Below are positions 1 to 7,580 of a stretch of 7,580 nt of DNA, piece after piece. This DNA comes from a virus. Its lineage: Duplodnaviria > Heunggongvirae > Uroviricota > Caudoviricetes. Position numbers and translations under genes: made by a program. The first letter of the stretch is position 1, and every line of letters begins with the position of its first letter. The stretch lies in the IMG/VR virus record IMGVR_UViG_2671180631_000001; one strand, 5' to 3'. The notes beneath the pieces are model-generated. The model did no database searches and was not told where the DNA came from. It saw only the letters and a list, made by a program, of their open reading frames with translations.

Positions 1-34
1 CTCCAATGACTAGTCTAAAAACTAGTATTAAGAC

Positions 35-54
35 TATCACTTATTTAAGTGATA
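35..54. repeat. Perfect 9-bp inverted repeat TATCACTTA-tt-TAAGTGATA (operator-like 20-bp dyad) in AT-rich sequence upstream of the endolysin
   Basis: Read directly: 35-43 tatcactta, 44-45 tt, 46-54 taagtgata; the right arm is the exact reverse complement of the left arm. The existence of the repeat is certain, its function is unknown. Confidence 0.6.
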
Positions 55-108
55 CTGGTTGTCTGGAGATTCAGGGGGCCAGTCTAGTAAGGCTGCGAGA
101 GGTGAATA

Positions 109-500: not shown

Positions 501-551
501 NNNNNNNNNNNNNNNNNNNNNNNNNNNNNNNNNNNNNNNNNNNNNNNNNNN
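501..551. other. Assembly gap or masked segment (51 N)
   Basis: Uninterrupted run of n at 501-551. Flanking gene content shows the true missing length is much larger than 51 bp (see findings). Confidence 0.95.
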
Positions 552-822: not shown

Positions 823-1335
823 TTAGCTAAAAAAAGGCAACACGAAGCTAAAACTACCAACATAAAGTGCTGACCAGCTAGCAGCTGAAATCAGACTCAC
901 TGTATACACTTTCACTGGATGAAGTTGCAACATTCCTGCCACCAAAGGAGCAATATAACGCAGCACGGCGATAAAGCGCGAAGTGAAAAGTATTGACACA
1001 GAGTTATTTTGCAACTGAAGGCGAACCCGTTCTATTGTATTGGAACGGCTTGATATTATACATGCAAGTTGAGGGATATGCCCAATTATTATACCAAGAT
1101 GGTAATTAACGATAGTACCGCACCATGCGCCACTCATGACCGTGATTCCAGCTTCCCATGGTGAAAGAGTCGTCTTGCTGACTGTAATTACAGTGGCCAT
1201 CATAATTGATGCTGGTGGCAATATCGCCGAAATGAGTAAAGTGGATTTTGTGAACGCTATTATAAAAAGAAGCCCCCATAGGCGATATGGATGAAGTACA
1301 AAATAGTTCATCAAAGCATTTATCCACTCCATCAA
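823..1335 (-). CDS. DedA/YqaA-like (COG1238-type) polytopic inner-membrane protein; AT-rich cargo (moron) gene
   Basis: 170-codon minus-strand ORF with stop TAA (reverse complement of 823-825). TTG at 1335 is immediately followed by ATG at 1332, with AAGGAAAG 7-10 nt upstream. The product is hydrophobic with a YqaA-like pattern (ILPPAS...SPWEAGI...GAWCGTIVNYHLGIIIG...). Sampled 60-nt blocks are about 35-45% GC against about 55% in the phage structural genes. Family assignment is from recalled similarity, not a search. Confidence 0.6.
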   Translation of the reverse strand: MMEWINALMNYFVLHPYRLWGLLFIIAFTKSTLLISAILPPASIMMATVITVSKTTLSPWEAGITVMSGAWCGTIVNYHLGIIIGHIPQLACIISSRSNTIERVRLQLQNNSVSILFTSRFIAVLRYIAPLVAGMLQLHPVKVYTVSLISAASWSALYVGSFSFVLPFFS

Positions 1336-1529
1336 TGTCTTTCCTTCTGTGAATTTTTCTTTGCTATTTAACCGTGATACGACTTAATTTAGGCTTAAAC
1401 ACCTTACATTTACAAGGTACTCCTGTGGGGGGCCCTGCCACGGAGCGTCGCAGGAGTGAGTGATGAGGAAGAATTAAAGCAACCTATTGTGACAGGCAGC
1501 GATAACAGTAAATCACAGGAAGCATAATC

Positions 1530-2294
1530 ATGGCAAAACCGGACTGGGAGGCCATCGAATCGGCATACCGGGCCGGAGTCCTTAGCCTCCGTGATATAGG
1601 CGAGAAATACGGCGTTACAGAAGGGGCTATCAGGAAGAGGGCCAAAAAGCTTGGTTGGGCACGCAGTGGCGGTACGCAGGTTTGCAAAAATGGTACGCAA
1701 AAAAGGAAAGTGCGTACCAGCAGAAAGCCTGCCATTACTGGCCTTACACAAAAAAGTACGCAACTAAAAACAGAATCTACACCGGATACGAAACCGATAC
1801 GCGGAATGCGTACCGATCCCCCGACTAACCCATTCCAACCCGGTAACCAGCAGGCATTAAAACACGGTGGTTATGCCCGTCGCCTTCTGCTCAAAGATGA
1901 GGTGATAGAGGACGCTAAAGCGTTGACGCTCGAGGACGAATTATTTCGCCTTCGTGCTAACAACCTTGTCGCTGCAGAGAATATTGGTCGGTGGTTGGTG
2001 TCGCTGGAAGATGCTAATGGGGACCAGGAAAGGAAGATGCTGATTGAAAATATCAGCGCCGCCGAGAAAGCAATGATGCGCAATACAGTTCGTATTGAGT
2101 CCATCGTTGGCACGCTTGCGACGGTAGGAAAAATATTTGCTGATACAGCCTACCGCAAGGCCGCCACTGATAAGGTGTCTCTGGAGGCTGATCGTCTTCG
2201 CCGTGATGCAGGTATTGATGATGGCAATGGAGAGCGTGACCTCAATGACTTCTACTCTGACATCCAAACCGACGCTGAATCCGGCTTTACGTAG
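1530..2294 (+). CDS. Terminase small subunit (TerS) with N-terminal helix-turn-helix
   Basis: ATG at 1530 with AGGA 9 nt upstream; 254 codons; stop TAG 2292-2294. N-terminal HTH-like segment (SLRDIGEKYGVTEGAIRKRAKKLGW) followed by a basic/Thr-rich linker. Lies immediately upstream of the large terminase subunit. Confidence 0.8.
   Translation: MAKPDWEAIESAYRAGVLSLRDIGEKYGVTEGAIRKRAKKLGWARSGGTQVCKNGTQKRKVRTSRKPAITGLTQKSTQLKTESTPDTKPIRGMRTDPPTNPFQPGNQQALKHGGYARRLLLKDEVIEDAKALTLEDELFRLRANNLVAAENIGRWLVSLEDANGDQERKMLIENISAAEKAMMRNTVRIESIVGTLATVGKIFADTAYRKAATDKVSLEADRLRRDAGIDDGNGERDLNDFYSDIQTDAESGFT
1671..1814. repeat. Cluster of five GGTACGCA / TGCGTACC copies with flanking A-tracts inside terS (candidate pac or TerS recognition site)
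   Basis: GGTACGCA at 1671-1678 and 1692-1699; reverse complement TGCGTACC at 1711-1718 and 1807-1814; GTACGCA at 1756-1762. A5-6 tracts at 1686-1690, 1699-1704, 1750-1755 and 1766-1770. Copies in both orientations argue for a DNA-level rather than peptide-level constraint. Confidence 0.5.
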
Positions 2295-3648
2295 TTTCTG
2301 GACTATGCGGGCACGTAACAAAGTGCTTTATGGTGGTCGGTCATCGTCAAAATCATGGGATGCCGCTGGCATTGCCATATTTCTGTCGAATAAATACACC
2401 CTGCGTTTTTGTTGTGCCCGTCAGATCCAGAATAAAATCGAAGAGTCGGTGTATACCCTGCTCAAAATTCAGATAGACAGGTTTGGTCTGCGGCACCGTT
2501 TCCGTATTCTGAACAACAAAATCATTAACCGGGTTACTGGCTCGGAATTTGTTTTTTATGGATTATGGCGCAACATCGAAGAAATTAAGTCACTGGAGGG
2601 GATCGATGTGTTGTGGCTGGAAGAAGCCCACGCACTGACGGAATACCAGTGGAAAATTCTGGAGCCAACGATCCGTAAAGAGGGTTCGGAATGCTGGTTC
2701 ATATTCAACCCCGGACTTGTTACTGATTTCGTCTGGCGCAACTTCGTTGTTGATCCGCCCGAAGGCACTCTCATCCGCAAAATTAACTATGACGAAAATC
2801 CGTTTCTGTCTGACACCATGCTTAAGGTTATCGACGCGGCGCGACGCCGTGATCCGGATGGTTTTAAACATGTGTATGAGGGCGTTCCGGAGTCTGATGA
2901 TGATGCGGCAATCATCAAACTGTCTTGGATAGAAGCCGCAGTGGATGCGCACAAAACGTTAAATTTCGAACCCAGTGGAAGAAAGCGTATTGGCTTTGAC
3001 GTGGCTGACAGTGGTACAGATAAGTGCGCTAACGTTTACCGTCACGGATCCGTTGTTTTCTGGGCCGACGAATGGAAGGCCAAAGAAGATGAATTACTGA
3101 AGAGCTGCCAGCGTACTTATCAGGCGGCGCTGGAGCGTGAAGCAGATATTGTTTACGACTCTATCGGTGTTGGTGCGTCTGCCGGTGCTAAATTCTCTGA
3201 AATTAACGCTGACCGGAAGAGCGAGAACGCATACGCGCGACGTGTGAATTACCAGAGGTTTAACGCCGGTGCTGGTGTGCATGAGCCAGATGACGAGTAC
3301 AACGGCATCCCCAACAAAGACTTTTTCGCAAATCTTAAGGCTCAGGCATGGTGGCTGGTGGCTGACCGTTTCAGAAATACGTTTAACGCCATTAACAACG
3401 GAGAACAGTATCCTGTGGATGAGCTGATCAGCATAGATTCTCGTTGTCCGTTGCTTGAAAAGCTGAAACTGGAACTGACAACACCTCATCGTGATTTCGA
3501 CCGTAACGGACGTGTGATGGTCGAAAGTAAAAAAGACCTCGCAAAACGCGAGATACCGTCACCAAACGTTGCTGATGCATTCATTATGGCCTTCGCGCCA
3601 ATCGATACATCGCTGGATATCTGGGAACAGCTGGGGAGACAGGCCTGA
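2245..3648 (+). CDS. Terminase large subunit (TerL), PBSX-type ATPase plus nuclease
   Basis: Open frame from 2137 to TGA 3646-3648. Walker A-like YGGRSSSKS, Walker B-like IDVLWLEEAH, and C-terminal nuclease acidic motifs (FDVADSG, IVYDSIG, NVADAFIMA). The start is ambiguous: ATG 2245 (GGAGAG 10 nt upstream, overlaps the terS 3' end) is chosen here; alternatives are ATG 2218/2221/2227 or ATG 2305 (11 nt after the terS stop, no clear SD). Confidence 0.9.
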   Translation: MTSTLTSKPTLNPALRSFWTMRARNKVLYGGRSSSKSWDAAGIAIFLSNKYTLRFCCARQIQNKIEESVYTLLKIQIDRFGLRHRFRILNNKIINRVTGSEFVFYGLWRNIEEIKSLEGIDVLWLEEAHALTEYQWKILEPTIRKEGSECWFIFNPGLVTDFVWRNFVVDPPEGTLIRKINYDENPFLSDTMLKVIDAARRRDPDGFKHVYEGVPESDDDAAIIKLSWIEAAVDAHKTLNFEPSGRKRIGFDVADSGTDKCANVYRHGSVVFWADEWKAKEDELLKSCQRTYQAALEREADIVYDSIGVGASAGAKFSEINADRKSENAYARRVNYQRFNAGAGVHEPDDEYNGIPNKDFFANLKAQAWWLVADRFRNTFNAINNGEQYPVDELISIDSRCPLLEKLKLELTTPHRDFDRNGRVMVESKKDLAKREIPSPNVADAFIMAFAPIDTSLDIWEQLGRQA

Positions 3649-5114
3649 TGGCACGAAACAAACAAGCCCTGCGGCGAACTGTGCAGGCCACAGCTGATGG
3701 TTATGAGAATTTTATTGCCCGCGTAGGGATGCAGACACCTAACCAGCACTCAGCATCCACCTACCGGGCTAATTTCACCAGTCGTAACCGCATGCTGGTG
3801 GAATGGTCCTATCGTTCATCCTAGATCATCGGCGAAGCAGTCGATGCTATCCCGGATGATATGACCCGCAAAGGCATTCGCATCACTTCGGAAATTGATG
3901 CAAAAGATCGTGGCATTCTCGAATCACAACTGGATGAGTTGCAAATCTGGGATGCGCTGAATGACGTGCTGAAATGGTCGCGCCTCTACGGCGGCGCGGT
4001 GGGTTTCATCATGATTGAGGGGTAGGCACCAATGACCCCGCTGCGACCCGAAACCATCGGTAAGGGCAAGTTTAAGGGGATTCTCCCGCTCGACCGCTGG
4101 ATGGTCGACCCGGCACTGACCCGCCGCATTAAAGATATGGGGCCGGACCTGGGTAAACCTGAGTTTTACGATGTGGTGACCACAGCAACGGGAATTCCTG
4201 CCTGGCGCATTCATCACAGTCGCCTGATTCGCTTTGATGGCGTCACGTTGCCATTTCAGCAGAAGATGACCGAGAACGAATGGGGAATGTCGGTTGTAGA
4301 GCGTATCTGGGATCGTCTTACCGCGTTCGACAGCGCTACTGTCGGCGCGGCGCAGCTGGTCTACAAGGCGCATTTGCGTACCTACAGCGTGGAGAAGCTA
4401 CGCGAGCTTATCGCACTTGGTGGTCCTGCGTATGAAGCGTTGCTGAAGAATATCGACCTGATTCGACAGTTCCAGAGTAATGAAGGCATGACGCTCATGG
4501 ACTCGCGGGATAAGTTTGAAACCCATCAGTACAGCTTCAGTGGTCTGGATGACATCCTTTCGCAGTTTGTAGAACAGATTAGTGGCGCTGTTGGTATCCC
4601 ACTGGTGCGGTTGTTCGGACAGTCCCCGAAAGGATTTTCTACCGGTGATGCAGACCTTGCCAACTATTACGATCGCATCAGTTCGTTGCAGGAGAGGCGT
4701 TTACGTCTTCCGGTGCGGCGGATACTGGACATCATGCATCGTTCGGAACTTGGCAAGCCGCTGCCGGACGATTTCACGTTTGAGTTTAACCCGCTCTGGC
4801 AAATGTCTGATGTCGATCGCTCAACGGTGGCGTTAAACACCACCAACGCAATCAGTACGGCGCTGGGTGATGGTCTGATGACACTGAAAGCCGCTATGAC
4901 TGATTTGCGAGAAAATTCTGACGTAACCGGCATCGGGGCATCCATTACCGACGAGGACATCGAGAATGCCGAAGATGAAGCGCCGCCCGGCATCGGCGAA
5001 CCTGATGACGAACCGCAGGAGCCGTCAGGCGGAAATCCGGTATCGAACCAGCCTACGCAGGATAGCGAGGGCGGTCGGAGACATCGTAAATGGTCGCTAC
5101 GATGGTTCAAATGA
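3648..5114 (+). pseudogene. Portal protein gene interrupted by two in-frame TAG codons (3822-3824 and 4023-4025); longest intact segment is 4032-5114
   Basis: ATG 3648 overlaps the TerL stop (TGATG). One frame runs 489 codons to TGA 5112-5114 except for TAG at codons 59 and 126. The translation across both stops reads as one protein (…NRMLVEWSYRSS*IIGEAVDAIPDDMTRKGIRI…GGAVGFIMIEG*APMTPLRPETIGKGKFKGILPLDRWMVDP…), with an acidic C-terminal tail typical of portals. Confidence 0.8.
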
Positions 5115-7482: not shown

Positions 7483-7497
7483 GGAACAGACGAATGA

Positions 7498-7520
7498 GGT
7501 GATGCTGCCAACTTACTGAT
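7498..7520 (+). repeat. IS1 left terminal inverted repeat (IRL)
   Basis: GGTGATGCTGCCAACTTACTGAT read at 7498-7520, matching the IS1 terminus as I recall it. Confidence 0.85.
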
Positions 7521-7552
7521 TTAGTGTATGATGGTGTTTTTGAGGTGCTCCA

Positions 7553-7580
7553 GTGGCTTCTGTTTCTATCAGCTGTCCCT
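7553..7580 (+). CDS. insA: IS1 InsA (transposition regulator), 5' partial, truncated by the window end
   Basis: GTG 7553 followed by GCT TCT GTT TCT ATC AGC TGT CCC, giving (M)ASVSISCP, the known InsA N-terminus. Confidence 0.85.

What the first reader, a model, noticed from the sequence alone, without database searches (positions are those of the whole stretch)
1661..1814. Candidate pac site: GGTACGCA repeats in both orientations with A-tracts inside terS
Five copies of an 8-mer (three direct, two inverted; one copy is 7 of 8) lie within about 145 bp, inside the linker-encoding part of terS, interleaved with A5-6 tracts. An 8-mer recurring five times at this density is far beyond chance. The inverted copies encode different peptides (GTQ versus RT), so the constraint is on the DNA. 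Headful (pac) phages with PBSX/P22/SPP1-type terminases typically carry their pac site inside or next to terS, with repeated TerS-binding motifs and bent DNA. This would identify the packaging initiation site of this element.
Basis: partly seen in the sequence, partly recalled or inferred. Interest (0 to 1): 0.6.

Follow-up and report, generated by a model that had tools for sequence, protein, structure and literature searches.

The report
Small-terminase binding-site array inside terS
A cluster of short GTACGCA repeats inside a prophage's small-terminase gene is almost certainly the set of DNA sites that this protein's own helix-turn-helix domain binds to start genome packaging, and relatives with a different DNA-reading helix carry a matching different repeat, which gives a natural recognition code that can be tested.

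Summary
GGTACGCA occurs exactly at 1671(+), 1692(+), 1711(-) and 1807(-). There are 7/8 copies at 1755(+) and 1658(+), and two decayed copies. No dinucleotide shuffle reaches this clustering (0/400).

The constraint is on the DNA:
- Copies fall in three frame/orientation classes.
- They exceed synonymous-codon expectation.
- Within the linker-coding part, motif columns are as conserved as the HTH-coding part, while spacers drift.

The decisive evidence is comparative. Across 312 unique terS 5' regions, residues 31, 32 and 35 of the predicted recognition helix predict the repeated motif in 310 of 311. Examples are EG..R with GTACGC, HG..N with GTATCC and HA..L with GTAACC. Array geometry stays the same while the site sequence changes.

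TerL is a full-length homologue of headful phage Sf6 gp2. The upstream intergenic region is not co-inherited with terS-terL.

The best reading is a TerS recognition array, that is, a pac recognition site. This is a known kind of element, but I found no description of this family. No binding or termini data exist.

This copy lies in a decayed prophage: it is cut by an IS1 copy downstream and flanked by a multi-copy element end upstream, and its portal gene has two amber codons.

The parts
1530..2294 (+). terS (small terminase, 254 aa)
   Evidence: PHROG 370 'terminase small subunit', E=7.5e-95. It lies directly upstream of terL and overlaps it. No Pfam family matches, only weak HTH hits at residues 17-41.
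1545..1652 (+). Codons of the N-terminal three-helix HTH domain (residues 6-41). The predicted recognition helix is residues 31-41 (nt 1620-1652). The specificity residues are E31 (1620-1622), G32 (1623-1625) and R35 (1632-1634).
   Evidence: AlphaFold2 helices 6-15, 20-27 and 31-41 with pLDDT 80-89. A profile of the domain matches the HTH of TyrR and LrpA at E=0.006-0.02, aligned helix 2 - turn - helix 3. Residues 31, 32 and 35 covary with the repeat motif.
1658..1665 (+). Repeat copy 1, GGCACGCA (7/8; GGTACGCA in relatives)
1671..1678 (+). Repeat copy 2, GGTACGCA (exact)
1679..1686 (+). Decayed copy 3, GGTTTGCA (6/8); aligns to GGTACGCA in Klebsiella phages
1692..1699 (+). Repeat copy 4, GGTACGCA (exact), followed by an A6 tract
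1711..1718 (-). Inverted copy (TGCGTACC on the + strand)
   Evidence: kept in relatives at the same position
1743..1750 (+). Decayed copy, CTTACACA (5/8); aligns to CGTACGCA in phage Chronis and in the family consensus
1755..1762 (+). Repeat copy, AGTACGCA (7/8; GTACGCA core intact)
1807..1814 (-). Distal inverted copy (TGCGTACC). Its membership is uncertain because it overlaps the conserved codons IRGxRTDPP and is also present in L009, which has another helix class.
1671..1835 (+). Codons of the disordered linker (residues 48-102) that houses most of the array
   Evidence: pLDDT about 30 across residues 48-102
2245..3648 (+). terL (large terminase). The start is set by homology to annotated relatives. 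It overlaps terS by 50 nt.
   Evidence: Pfam Terminase_3, E=3.8e-38. Full-length match to PDB 4IFE/4IDH 'Gene 2 protein', E=1.4e-78; from memory these entries are Sf6 gp2. PGAP annotates the 99.9% identical E. coli copy as a PBSX family terminase.

Best explanation
The array is the recognition site at which this phage family's small terminase assembles on its own DNA to start headful packaging.

The N-terminal helix-turn-helix domain of TerS reads a site of about 8 bp, GGT-N-N-C/G-C-A, often followed by A's. In this element the site is GGTACGCA. The sites are written into the codons of the disordered linker that directly follows the HTH-coding part of terS.

Proposed mechanism:
1. Several HTH domains of one TerS oligomer engage successive direct copies, which are spaced 8-15 bp apart. 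Other HTH domains engage one or two inverted copies.
2. This forms a wrapped or looped nucleoprotein complex on the concatemer.
3. The complex recruits TerL, an Sf6 gp2-type headful nuclease/ATPase.
4. TerL cuts somewhere nearby and packages unidirectionally by the headful.

Shown here:
- The array is real, clustered and unique in a whole related genome.
- It is under DNA-level selection.
- Its sequence covaries with three recognition-helix residues while its geometry stays fixed.
- TerL is of a headful type.

Inferred, not shown:
- Physical TerS binding and the wrapping geometry.
- The position and precision of the first cut, and the direction of packaging.

In this particular genome the prophage is decayed. 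The site could therefore only act in cis for a related helper phage.
For: 1. Clustering is beyond chance. One 7-mer occurs 5 times in 200 bp, against a maximum of 4 in 400 dinucleotide shuffles.

2. The cluster is unique. In the complete 42-kb genome of the relative GZ7, the terS cluster is the strongest 7-mer cluster (7 copies in 200 bp), and the motif is never more than single elsewhere.

3. The constraint is on the DNA, not the protein.
- With the protein sequence held fixed and synonymous codons resampled, GTACGC counts are 5 observed against a mean of 1.3 for the window (13/5000 reach it). They are 8 observed for L001 (0/5000) and 6 for HK639 (0/5000).
- Copies occupy three frame/orientation classes.
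- Motif columns are far more conserved than spacers.

4. Copy number changes by in-frame 12-bp units, and the motif is kept.

5. Covariation with the helix.
- In 312 unique sequences from 425 loci, residues 31/32/35 predict the repeated motif in 310 of 311.
- The pairs are: EG..R and DG..R with GTACGC; DT..R with GTTCGC; HG..N and HS..N with GTATCC; HT..N with GTTTCC; HQ..S with GTTGCC; HA..L with GTAACC; HN..L and HN..M with GTGACC; HV..x with GTTACC.
- The code is combinatorial. Residue 32 tracks base 4: G, S or A goes with A; T, Q or V goes with T; N goes with G. Residue 35 together with residue 31 tracks bases 5-6: R with CG, N with TC, S with GC, L or M with AC.
- Helix variants first seen after the rule was stated fit it: SHVAIA (14 sequences) and AHNTIM (13 sequences).

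6. Geometry is conserved across motif classes. It is three direct copies then one inverted copy, with spacings 15, 12, 28 in TerS of about 200 aa and 12, 13, 16 in TerS of about 171 aa.

7. The HTH and its array travel together as a cassette.
- The same helix and motif occur with three or more different TerS C-terminal cores and at least two TerL families.
- One C-terminal core carries five different helix/motif pairs.
- L009 has the window-type C-terminal part but another helix with its own motif.

8. The variable residues sit at the start of the predicted recognition helix.

9. TerL matches Sf6 gp2 over its full length, E=1.4e-78. Its nearest phage relatives are E217/PB1-like, IME-AB2-like and APSE-1; none is a lambda-type cos enzyme.

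10. Edno5 carries the same helix and a 3+1 GTACGC array. PhageTerm reported it as permuted with no fixed termini (PMC6372524).

11. The upstream intergenic region is not shared with relatives.
Against: - There is no binding assay, footprint or termini map for any member.
- PhageTerm found no pac peak in Edno5. The first cut may be imprecise, as I recall for Sf6, or the recognition site may lie away from the cut.
[quoted passage not shown] Specific HTH-site recognition is therefore not the default expectation.
- The helix and the array are adjacent on the DNA, so part of their association is linkage. The argument rests on the concerted change of all copies and on the combinatorial pattern, not on independent contrasts.
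- PdC23 has the helix TEGAIRKQAK but no array, and Orisa03, Y7 and Y11 show no clear array.
- The window's array is partly decayed compared with its Klebsiella relatives.
- Predicted curvature is not exceptional, and there is no IHF consensus in the region.
- Foldseek found no solved TerS resembling the model.
Confidence: 0.8

Rival explanations
1. The repeats are TerS-binding sites, but they do not start headful packaging. They could be the cosB-like anchor of a cos-type terminase that cuts at a fixed site, or operators through which TerS regulates its own operon.
For: The covariation shows only that a helix-specific binder reads the sites. Lambda cosB is also a set of direct and inverted TerS sites (PMC4669245). 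The HK639 record starts 50 bp upstream of terS.
Against: TerL is a full-length homologue of Sf6 gp2, and its other relatives are not cos enzymes. The sequence upstream of terS is not co-inherited. Edno5 is reported as permuted with no termini. There is no IHF consensus. Most records are opened at terS by convention, so the HK639 start carries no information.
Confidence: 0.08
2. The repeats are a by-product of a low-complexity, slippage-prone peptide linker (GTQ/STQ units) and have no function at the DNA level.
For: Direct copies in the window all encode G/S-T-Q in one frame. Copy number changes by 12-bp units. The region encodes a disordered linker.
Against: Copies also occur in a second frame (VRK/VRN) and inverted (RT). 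Counts exceed synonymous expectation. Wobble positions inside motifs are frozen while neighbouring ones vary. In short TerS the array lies in different peptide contexts, yet all copies change together with the helix.
Confidence: 0.03
3. The direct and inverted copies form an RNA or single-stranded DNA hairpin that regulates terS-terL expression. The protein-helix correlation would be only linkage.
For: A 9-bp hairpin, 1691-1699 with 1711-1719, is predicted, with z=-2.1 for the region. The inverted copy changes together with the direct copies across classes, which looks like compensatory change.
Against: A hairpin needs one direct copy, not three to eight identical ones. The z-score is modest, and 5 of 200 shuffles fold as well. 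In Klebsiella relatives the stem shortens and the loop changes with no compensation. A hairpin does not explain the residue-to-base combinatorial pattern.
Confidence: 0.04
4. The sites are read by some other lineage-specific DNA-binding protein of the phage or host, not by TerS.
For: No binding data exist. Covariation with the adjacent HTH could reflect co-inheritance.
Against: The cassette moves between phages with otherwise different late and early regions, for example the lambdoid siphovirus HK639, the myovirus-like GZ7, and Pseudomonas and Acidovorax phages. Only the adjacent HTH always travels with it. The changes are concentrated at three positions near the start of the recognition helix.
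Confidence: 0.04

Closest known systems
Phage P22 pac site (22-bp site inside gene 3, the terS gene)
   Same: It is a packaging recognition signal embedded in the coding sequence of terS in a headful phage, and specificity is attributed to TerS (review PMC9611059).
   Different: P22 has a single asymmetric 22-bp site, whereas this element has an array of 4-10 short iterated sites in both orientations. P22 gp3 is a different TerS family. No specific in vitro binding has been shown for P22.
Bacillus phage SPP1/SF6 pac (pacL-pacC-pacR, bound by G1P)
   Same: TerS makes multiple contacts flanking the cut, and a ring of HTH domains is thought to wrap the DNA. The site is next to or overlapping terS (PMC9611059 and PMC4737164).
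   Different: Recognition in SPP1/SF6 is reported as largely sequence-independent. Here the sites are sharply defined and covary with the helix. The TerS families are unrelated, and this element's cut site is unknown.
Lambda cosB (R3, R2, R1 sites bound by gpNu1), with the lambda/21/N15 specificity classes
   Same: It has iterated TerS sites in direct and inverted orientation. Recognition-helix residues and site bases differ together between specificity classes. In N15 one site (rR2) lies inside terS (PMC4669245).
   Different: Lambda is a cos system with a lambda-type TerL, an IHF site and a nearby cosN. Here TerL is of the Sf6 gp2 type, there is no IHF consensus, the whole array lies inside terS, and at least eight specificity classes exist rather than three.
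Shigella phage Sf6 terminase (gp1/gp2)
   Same: TerL is homologous over its full length (4IFE/4IDH, E=1.4e-78), so headful packaging is expected. Sf6 TerS also has an N-terminal HTH (from memory).
   Different: The window TerS has no detectable sequence or fold match to Sf6 gp1. As I recall, Sf6 has no sharply defined pac site and starts its series over a broad region.
Phage P1 pac (hexamer repeats inside pacA) - recalled from memory
   Same: It is a cluster of short iterated motifs on both sides of the cut, inside the gene for the recognition subunit.
   Different: P1's repeats contain GATC and are controlled by Dam methylation and IHF. GTACGCA contains no GATC, and no IHF site is found here.

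Membership tests
pac site of a headful-packaging tailed phage | Lies in or next to the small terminase gene | tested here: met
   The array at 1658-1814 lies inside terS (1530-2294).
pac site of a headful-packaging tailed phage | The cognate TerL belongs to a headful-type lineage | tested here: met
   Full-length match to Sf6 gp2 structures, E=1.4e-78. Pfam Terminase_3. The nearest phage relatives are E217/PB1-like, IME-AB2-like and APSE-1.
pac site of a headful-packaging tailed phage | Unique in the phage genome | tested here: met
   In the whole GZ7 genome there are 7 copies in 200 bp at terS and never more than 1 elsewhere. In HK639 there are 4 copies against 1 elsewhere for GTACGCA.
pac site of a headful-packaging tailed phage | Bound specifically by TerS | not testable with these tools
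   Only indirect evidence exists: recognition-helix residues predict the motif in 310 of 311 sequences.
pac site of a headful-packaging tailed phage | Virion DNA is circularly permuted and terminally redundant, with the packaging series starting at or near the site | not testable with these tools
   No reads are available. For the relative Edno5, a paper reports a permuted genome with no termini by PhageTerm (PMC6372524). That is compatible, but it does not place the start.
pac site of a headful-packaging tailed phage | Required in cis for packaging and sufficient for high-frequency transduction | not testable with these tools
   This needs genetics.
lambda-type cosB | Lambda-type TerL and an adjacent cosN with cohesive ends | tested here: not met
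   TerL is of the Terminase_3 / Sf6 gp2 type. The region upstream of terS is not conserved with relatives.
lambda-type cosB | IHF site between oppositely oriented R sites | tested here: not met
   There is no WATCARNNNNTTR match in 1336-2300 on either strand.
Small terminase with N-terminal HTH DNA-binding domain | Gene immediately upstream of terL; TerS family match | tested here: met
   PHROG 370, E=7.5e-95. terS overlaps terL by 50 nt.
Small terminase with N-terminal HTH DNA-binding domain | N-terminal helix-turn-helix fold | tested here: met
   AlphaFold2 gives a three-helix domain at residues 6-41 with pLDDT 80-89. A profile matches the TyrR and LrpA HTH at E=0.006-0.02. Pfam HTH hits are below cut-off.
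Small terminase with N-terminal HTH DNA-binding domain | Ring-forming helical oligomerisation core resembling solved TerS | tested here: inconclusive
   A long helical hairpin at 114-203 is predicted (pLDDT 75-94). Foldseek against the PDB gives no significant TerS match, with best E=0.26 to generic helical proteins. Oligomeric state was not modelled.
P1-type pac (Dam-regulated hexamer repeats) | GATC within the repeats | tested here: not met
   The motif GGTACGCA(AAA) contains no GATC.

The most novel reading that the evidence does not exclude
The HTH domain and the site array written into the codons just downstream form a self-contained, portable packaging-specificity cassette.

The cassette follows a simple, readable code. 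Helix residue 32 sets base 4. Residues 31 and 35 set bases 5-6 of GGT-N-N-N-C-A.

At least eight natural specificities exist in phages of Enterobacterales, Aeromonas, Pseudomonas and Acidovorax. The cassette is joined to different TerS cores and different TerL families.

If this is right, packaging specificity in this family can be predicted from sequence and reprogrammed. It would also be the first headful system with sharply sequence-specific TerS-DNA recognition.
Probability: 0.6. Interest if true: 0.7.

Novelty: new member of a known kind. Interest (0 to 1): 0.6.

Why it matters
How small terminases of headful phages pick out their own DNA is still described as unclear and controversial. 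Purified TerS of P22, Sf6, SPP1 and SF6 shows little sequence specificity in vitro (PMC9611059).

This family offers something those models lack. It has a sharply defined, iterated 8-bp site and a fixed array geometry. It also has a natural series of at least eight specificity variants, in which three helix residues and the site bases change together. That makes gel shifts, footprints, specificity swaps and cryo-EM of a TerS-array complex directly designable.

Practically, it would:
- allow the packaging start and specificity to be predicted from sequence in several hundred prophages of E. coli, Shigella, Klebsiella, Enterobacter and Pseudomonas;
- flag which co-resident prophages can cross-package;
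- mark chromosomal positions from which lateral or generalised transduction could start, including decayed prophages such as this one that keep an intact site.

Tried and rejected
- Sequence search of TerS against the PDB found only a spurious Cif match.
- A Foldseek search of the AlphaFold2 model against the PDB found no TerS, only generic helical hairpins, with best E=0.26.
- Pfam recognises no TerS family, only sub-threshold HTH models.
- Literature searches for the motif, for HK639, Mulock, RCIP0034 and other relatives found no description of the array and no termini mapping. The supplement of the Chi-site paper that classifies terminase types is not held.
- I considered the ends of the RCIP0034 and RCIP0098 records (equivalent to window position about 2205) as possible termini. 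I rejected this because the genomes were assembled with SPAdes with no termini analysis, so the break is arbitrary.
- The HK639 record start, 50 bp upstream of terS, says nothing about the ends.
- I ran a curvature prediction with a wedge model whose parameters I recalled from memory. It gives a 34 degree peak at 1692, but about nine other peaks in the window are as high, so bending is not established.
- An IHF consensus search found nothing.
- The one search test with one mismatch allowed over the whole window is not significant on its own (10 matches against 5.1 expected; 4 of 200 shuffles reach it). The signal lies in the exact copies and their clustering.
Full report
**What the window is**

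The 7580 bases are the late-region start of an E. coli/Shigella prophage.
- They are 99.9% identical to a prophage of E. coli FDAARGOS_944.
- The TerS protein is identical to one in Shigella flexneri (L005).

Gene order:
- lysozyme and Rz/Rz1 (with an N-run at 501-551);
- a DedA-family gene on the minus strand (823-1335);
- terS (1530-2294);
- terL (2245-3648);
- a DUF1073 portal gene (3648-5114);
- a Mu F-like head protein gene, a DUF2213 gene and a cement-protein gene.

TerS matches PHROG 370 'terminase small subunit' at E=7.5e-95. It belongs to no Pfam family, and most database copies are named 'hypothetical protein'.

**The observation**

GGTACGCA occurs exactly at 1671, 1692 (+), 1711 and 1807 (-). 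AGTACGCA lies at 1755.

- GGCACGCA at 1658;
- a decayed copy at 1679-1686 (GGTTTGCA);
- a decayed copy at 1743-1750 (CTTACACA).

Both decayed copies align to intact copies in relatives.

One 7-mer occurring five times within 200 bp is not reached in any of 400 dinucleotide shuffles; the maximum was 4. The A5-6 tracts directly follow motif copies, so they are the tail of the unit.

AlphaFold2 gives:
- a confident three-helix N-domain (helices 6-15, 20-27 and 31-41, pLDDT 80-89);
- a disordered stretch at residues 48-102 (pLDDT about 30);
- a long helical hairpin at 114-203.

**The constraint is on the DNA**

- With the protein held fixed and synonymous codons resampled, GTACGC (both strands) is over-represented. 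The window has 5 against a mean of 1.3 (13/5000 reach it). Klebsiella phage ST16-OXA48phi5.2 has 8 (0/5000). HK639 has 6 (0/5000).
- In 66 unique window-type genes the copies fall in three frame/orientation classes: GTQ, VRK/VRN and inverted RT. 98.6% of copies lie between nt +120 and +310 of the gene.
- In the alignment of these genes, motif columns in the linker have entropy 0.133, the same as the HTH-coding part (0.136). Non-motif linker columns have 0.341 (permutation P=0.0002).
- In 71 unique HK639-type genes the 24 motif columns have entropy 0.004, against 0.544 for spacers and flanks. Wobble positions vary all around the motifs but not inside them.
- Copy number differs by in-frame 12-bp units. 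Most window-type genes have 6-7 direct and 2 inverted copies. The E. coli lineage has fewer intact ones.
- In the whole 42-kb genome of phage GZ7 the terS cluster is the strongest 7-mer cluster, and the motif is otherwise single.

**Who reads it**

I collected 425 loci (312 unique sequences) that encode the same N-terminal domain. They came from species-representative genomes, IMG/VR and GenBank phages.

The domain is highly conserved except at residues 30-35. These lie at the turn and the start of the third helix, the recognition helix of a classical HTH.

The residues at positions 31, 32 and 35 predict which short motif is repeated just downstream:

| Residues 31, 32 .. 35 | Repeated motif |
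|---|---|
| EG..R, DG..R | GTACGC |
| DT..R | GTTCGC |
| HG..N, HS..N | GTATCC |
| HT..N | GTTTCC |
| HQ..S | GTTGCC |
| HA..L | GTAACC |
| HN..L, HN..M | GTGACC |
| HV..Q, HV..T, HV..A | GTTACC |

In 310 of 311 sequences the predicted motif is present at least three times, and more often than any other class motif.

The pattern is combinatorial:
- Residue 32 tracks base 4. G, S or A goes with A; T, Q or V goes with T; N goes with G. This holds in both the R35 and N35 backgrounds.
- Residue 35, together with residue 31, tracks bases 5-6.

Two helix variants that I first met after writing the rule fit it: SHVAIA (14 sequences) and AHNTIM (13 sequences).

The geometry stays constant while the site sequence changes. 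It is three direct copies followed by one inverted copy. The spacings are 15, 12, 28 in TerS of about 200 aa and 12, 13, 16 in TerS of about 171 aa. In some arrays the third copy is in a different reading frame from the first two (L026: VR, VR, GSQ).

The helix and array move as a unit:
- GTACGC with xEGAIR occurs with at least three further TerS architectures besides the window type: HK639-type, EhrS_49-type and L019-type.
- The 171-aa core carries five different helix/motif pairs.
- L009 has the window-type C-terminal half but another helix with its own GGTTTCC array.
- L010 and L013 have a non-homologous N-domain, with GCGAATTCGC-type repeats at the same place.

Because helix and array are adjacent, linkage contributes to the association. 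What linkage cannot explain is that all three to ten copies change together and in step with three specific residues.

**pac or cos**

- TerL matches the Sf6 gp2 large-terminase structures over its whole length (4IFE/4IDH, E=1.4e-78). The identity of these entries as Sf6 gp2 is from my memory.
- Its nearest phage relatives are E217/PB1-like (54%), IME-AB2-like (65%) and APSE-1 (34%). None is a lambda-type enzyme.
- Homology with every relative that shares terS-terL begins at 1523-1528, just before the start codon.
- Edno5 carries TEGAIRKRAK and a 3+1 GTACGC array. PhageTerm reported it as permuted with no fixed termini (PMC6372524). This is compatible with headful packaging, and possibly with an imprecise first cut.

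No termini map exists for any member that I could find.

**Mechanism proposed**

TerS oligomers present several HTH domains on long flexible linkers. These bind the direct copies in series and the inverted copy or copies. The resulting nucleoprotein complex recruits TerL for the first cut of a headful series.

- Shown: the array, its DNA-level selection, its uniqueness, the helix-site covariation and the TerL type.
- Inferred: binding, stoichiometry, cut position and direction.

**Rivals**

- A peptide-repeat by-product is contradicted by the frames, the synonymous-codon tests and the wobble conservation.
- An RNA hairpin (1691-1699 with 1711-1719, z=-2.1) cannot explain multiple direct copies or the residue-base pattern.
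- A cosB-like or regulatory role for genuine TerS sites cannot be excluded without termini data, but the TerL type and the Edno5 report disfavour it.

**Comparison with known systems**

A pac signal inside terS is classic (P22, SPP1; review PMC9611059). Covariation between TerS recognition-helix residues and iterated sites is established for lambda, 21 and N15 cosB (PMC4669245).

This is therefore a new member of a known kind. I did not find it described in the searchable literature.

Its value is that the sites are sharply defined and come in many natural specificities. In the classic headful models, specific TerS-DNA binding has been hard to demonstrate.

**State of this copy**

The prophage in the window is decayed.
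- An IS1 end replaces the sequence after 7497.
- A multi-copy element end occupies 1-86.
- The portal gene has two amber codons that are absent from the intact E. coli copy.

terS and the array are identical to the intact copy between 1640 and 1830. Here the site could act only with a helper phage.

Noticed in passing
window 7498-7580: This is the end of an IS1 copy (72,699 places in E. coli genomes, annotated 'IS1-like element IS1A family transposase'). The window diverges from the intact FDAARGOS_944 prophage exactly at 7497, so the head gene cluster is cut off after the cement-protein gene.
   Followed up: yes
window 1-86: This is the end of another multi-copy element (20,770 places in E. 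coli genomes, median 3 per genome, with no annotation under the match). From memory it looks like the IS2 terminus. It abuts the lysozyme gene, where the intact prophage has a holin gene.
   Followed up: partly
window 3822-3824 and 4023-4025: The portal (DUF1073) gene has two in-frame amber codons, TGG to TAG and CAG to TAG. Both are absent from the 99.9% identical E. coli FDAARGOS_944 copy, where the gene is intact. This copy of the prophage cannot make portals unless the ambers are suppressed.
   Followed up: yes
window 501-551: A 51-base N-run stands in for about 390 bp, the end of the lysozyme gene and the start of the Rz-type lysis gene in the intact copy. ORFs across it are artefacts.
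   Followed up: partly
window 823-1529: A DedA/VTT-family membrane protein gene lies on the minus strand between the lysis genes and terS, as a moron-like insert. Neither it nor the 1336-1529 spacer is present in relatives that share terS-terL. The spacer holds a GC-rich inverted repeat around 1410-1446, which I did not study.
   Followed up: no
L379 (Klebsiella phage GZ7) about 8959: The second strongest 7-mer cluster of the whole genome is TACCTGA, 4 copies inside the replication protein O gene. These are probably origin iterons, another case of binding sites written inside the binder's own gene.
   Followed up: no
L010 and L013, nt +100 to +190 of terS: The TerS C-terminal core and TerL are the same as in the window, but the N-terminal domain is non-homologous (..GLNYATAKRYIK..). 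At the same spot there are 2-3 copies of a palindromic GCGAATTCGC-type repeat. This suggests a second, unrelated DNA-binding domain with its own site array.
   Followed up: partly
L136 (Pantoea phage PdC23), L135 (Orisa03), L137, L138: These distant members of the N-domain family have no clear repeat array downstream. PdC23 lacks one even though its helix is TEGAIRKQAK. They may recognise DNA elsewhere or not at all.
   Followed up: no
window 1785-1803: Two GATACG repeats (GATACGAAACCGATACGCG) are invariant in all window-type genes, including those with another helix class. They encode the conserved DTKPIRG peptide. It is unclear whether they are also DNA sites.
   Followed up: partly
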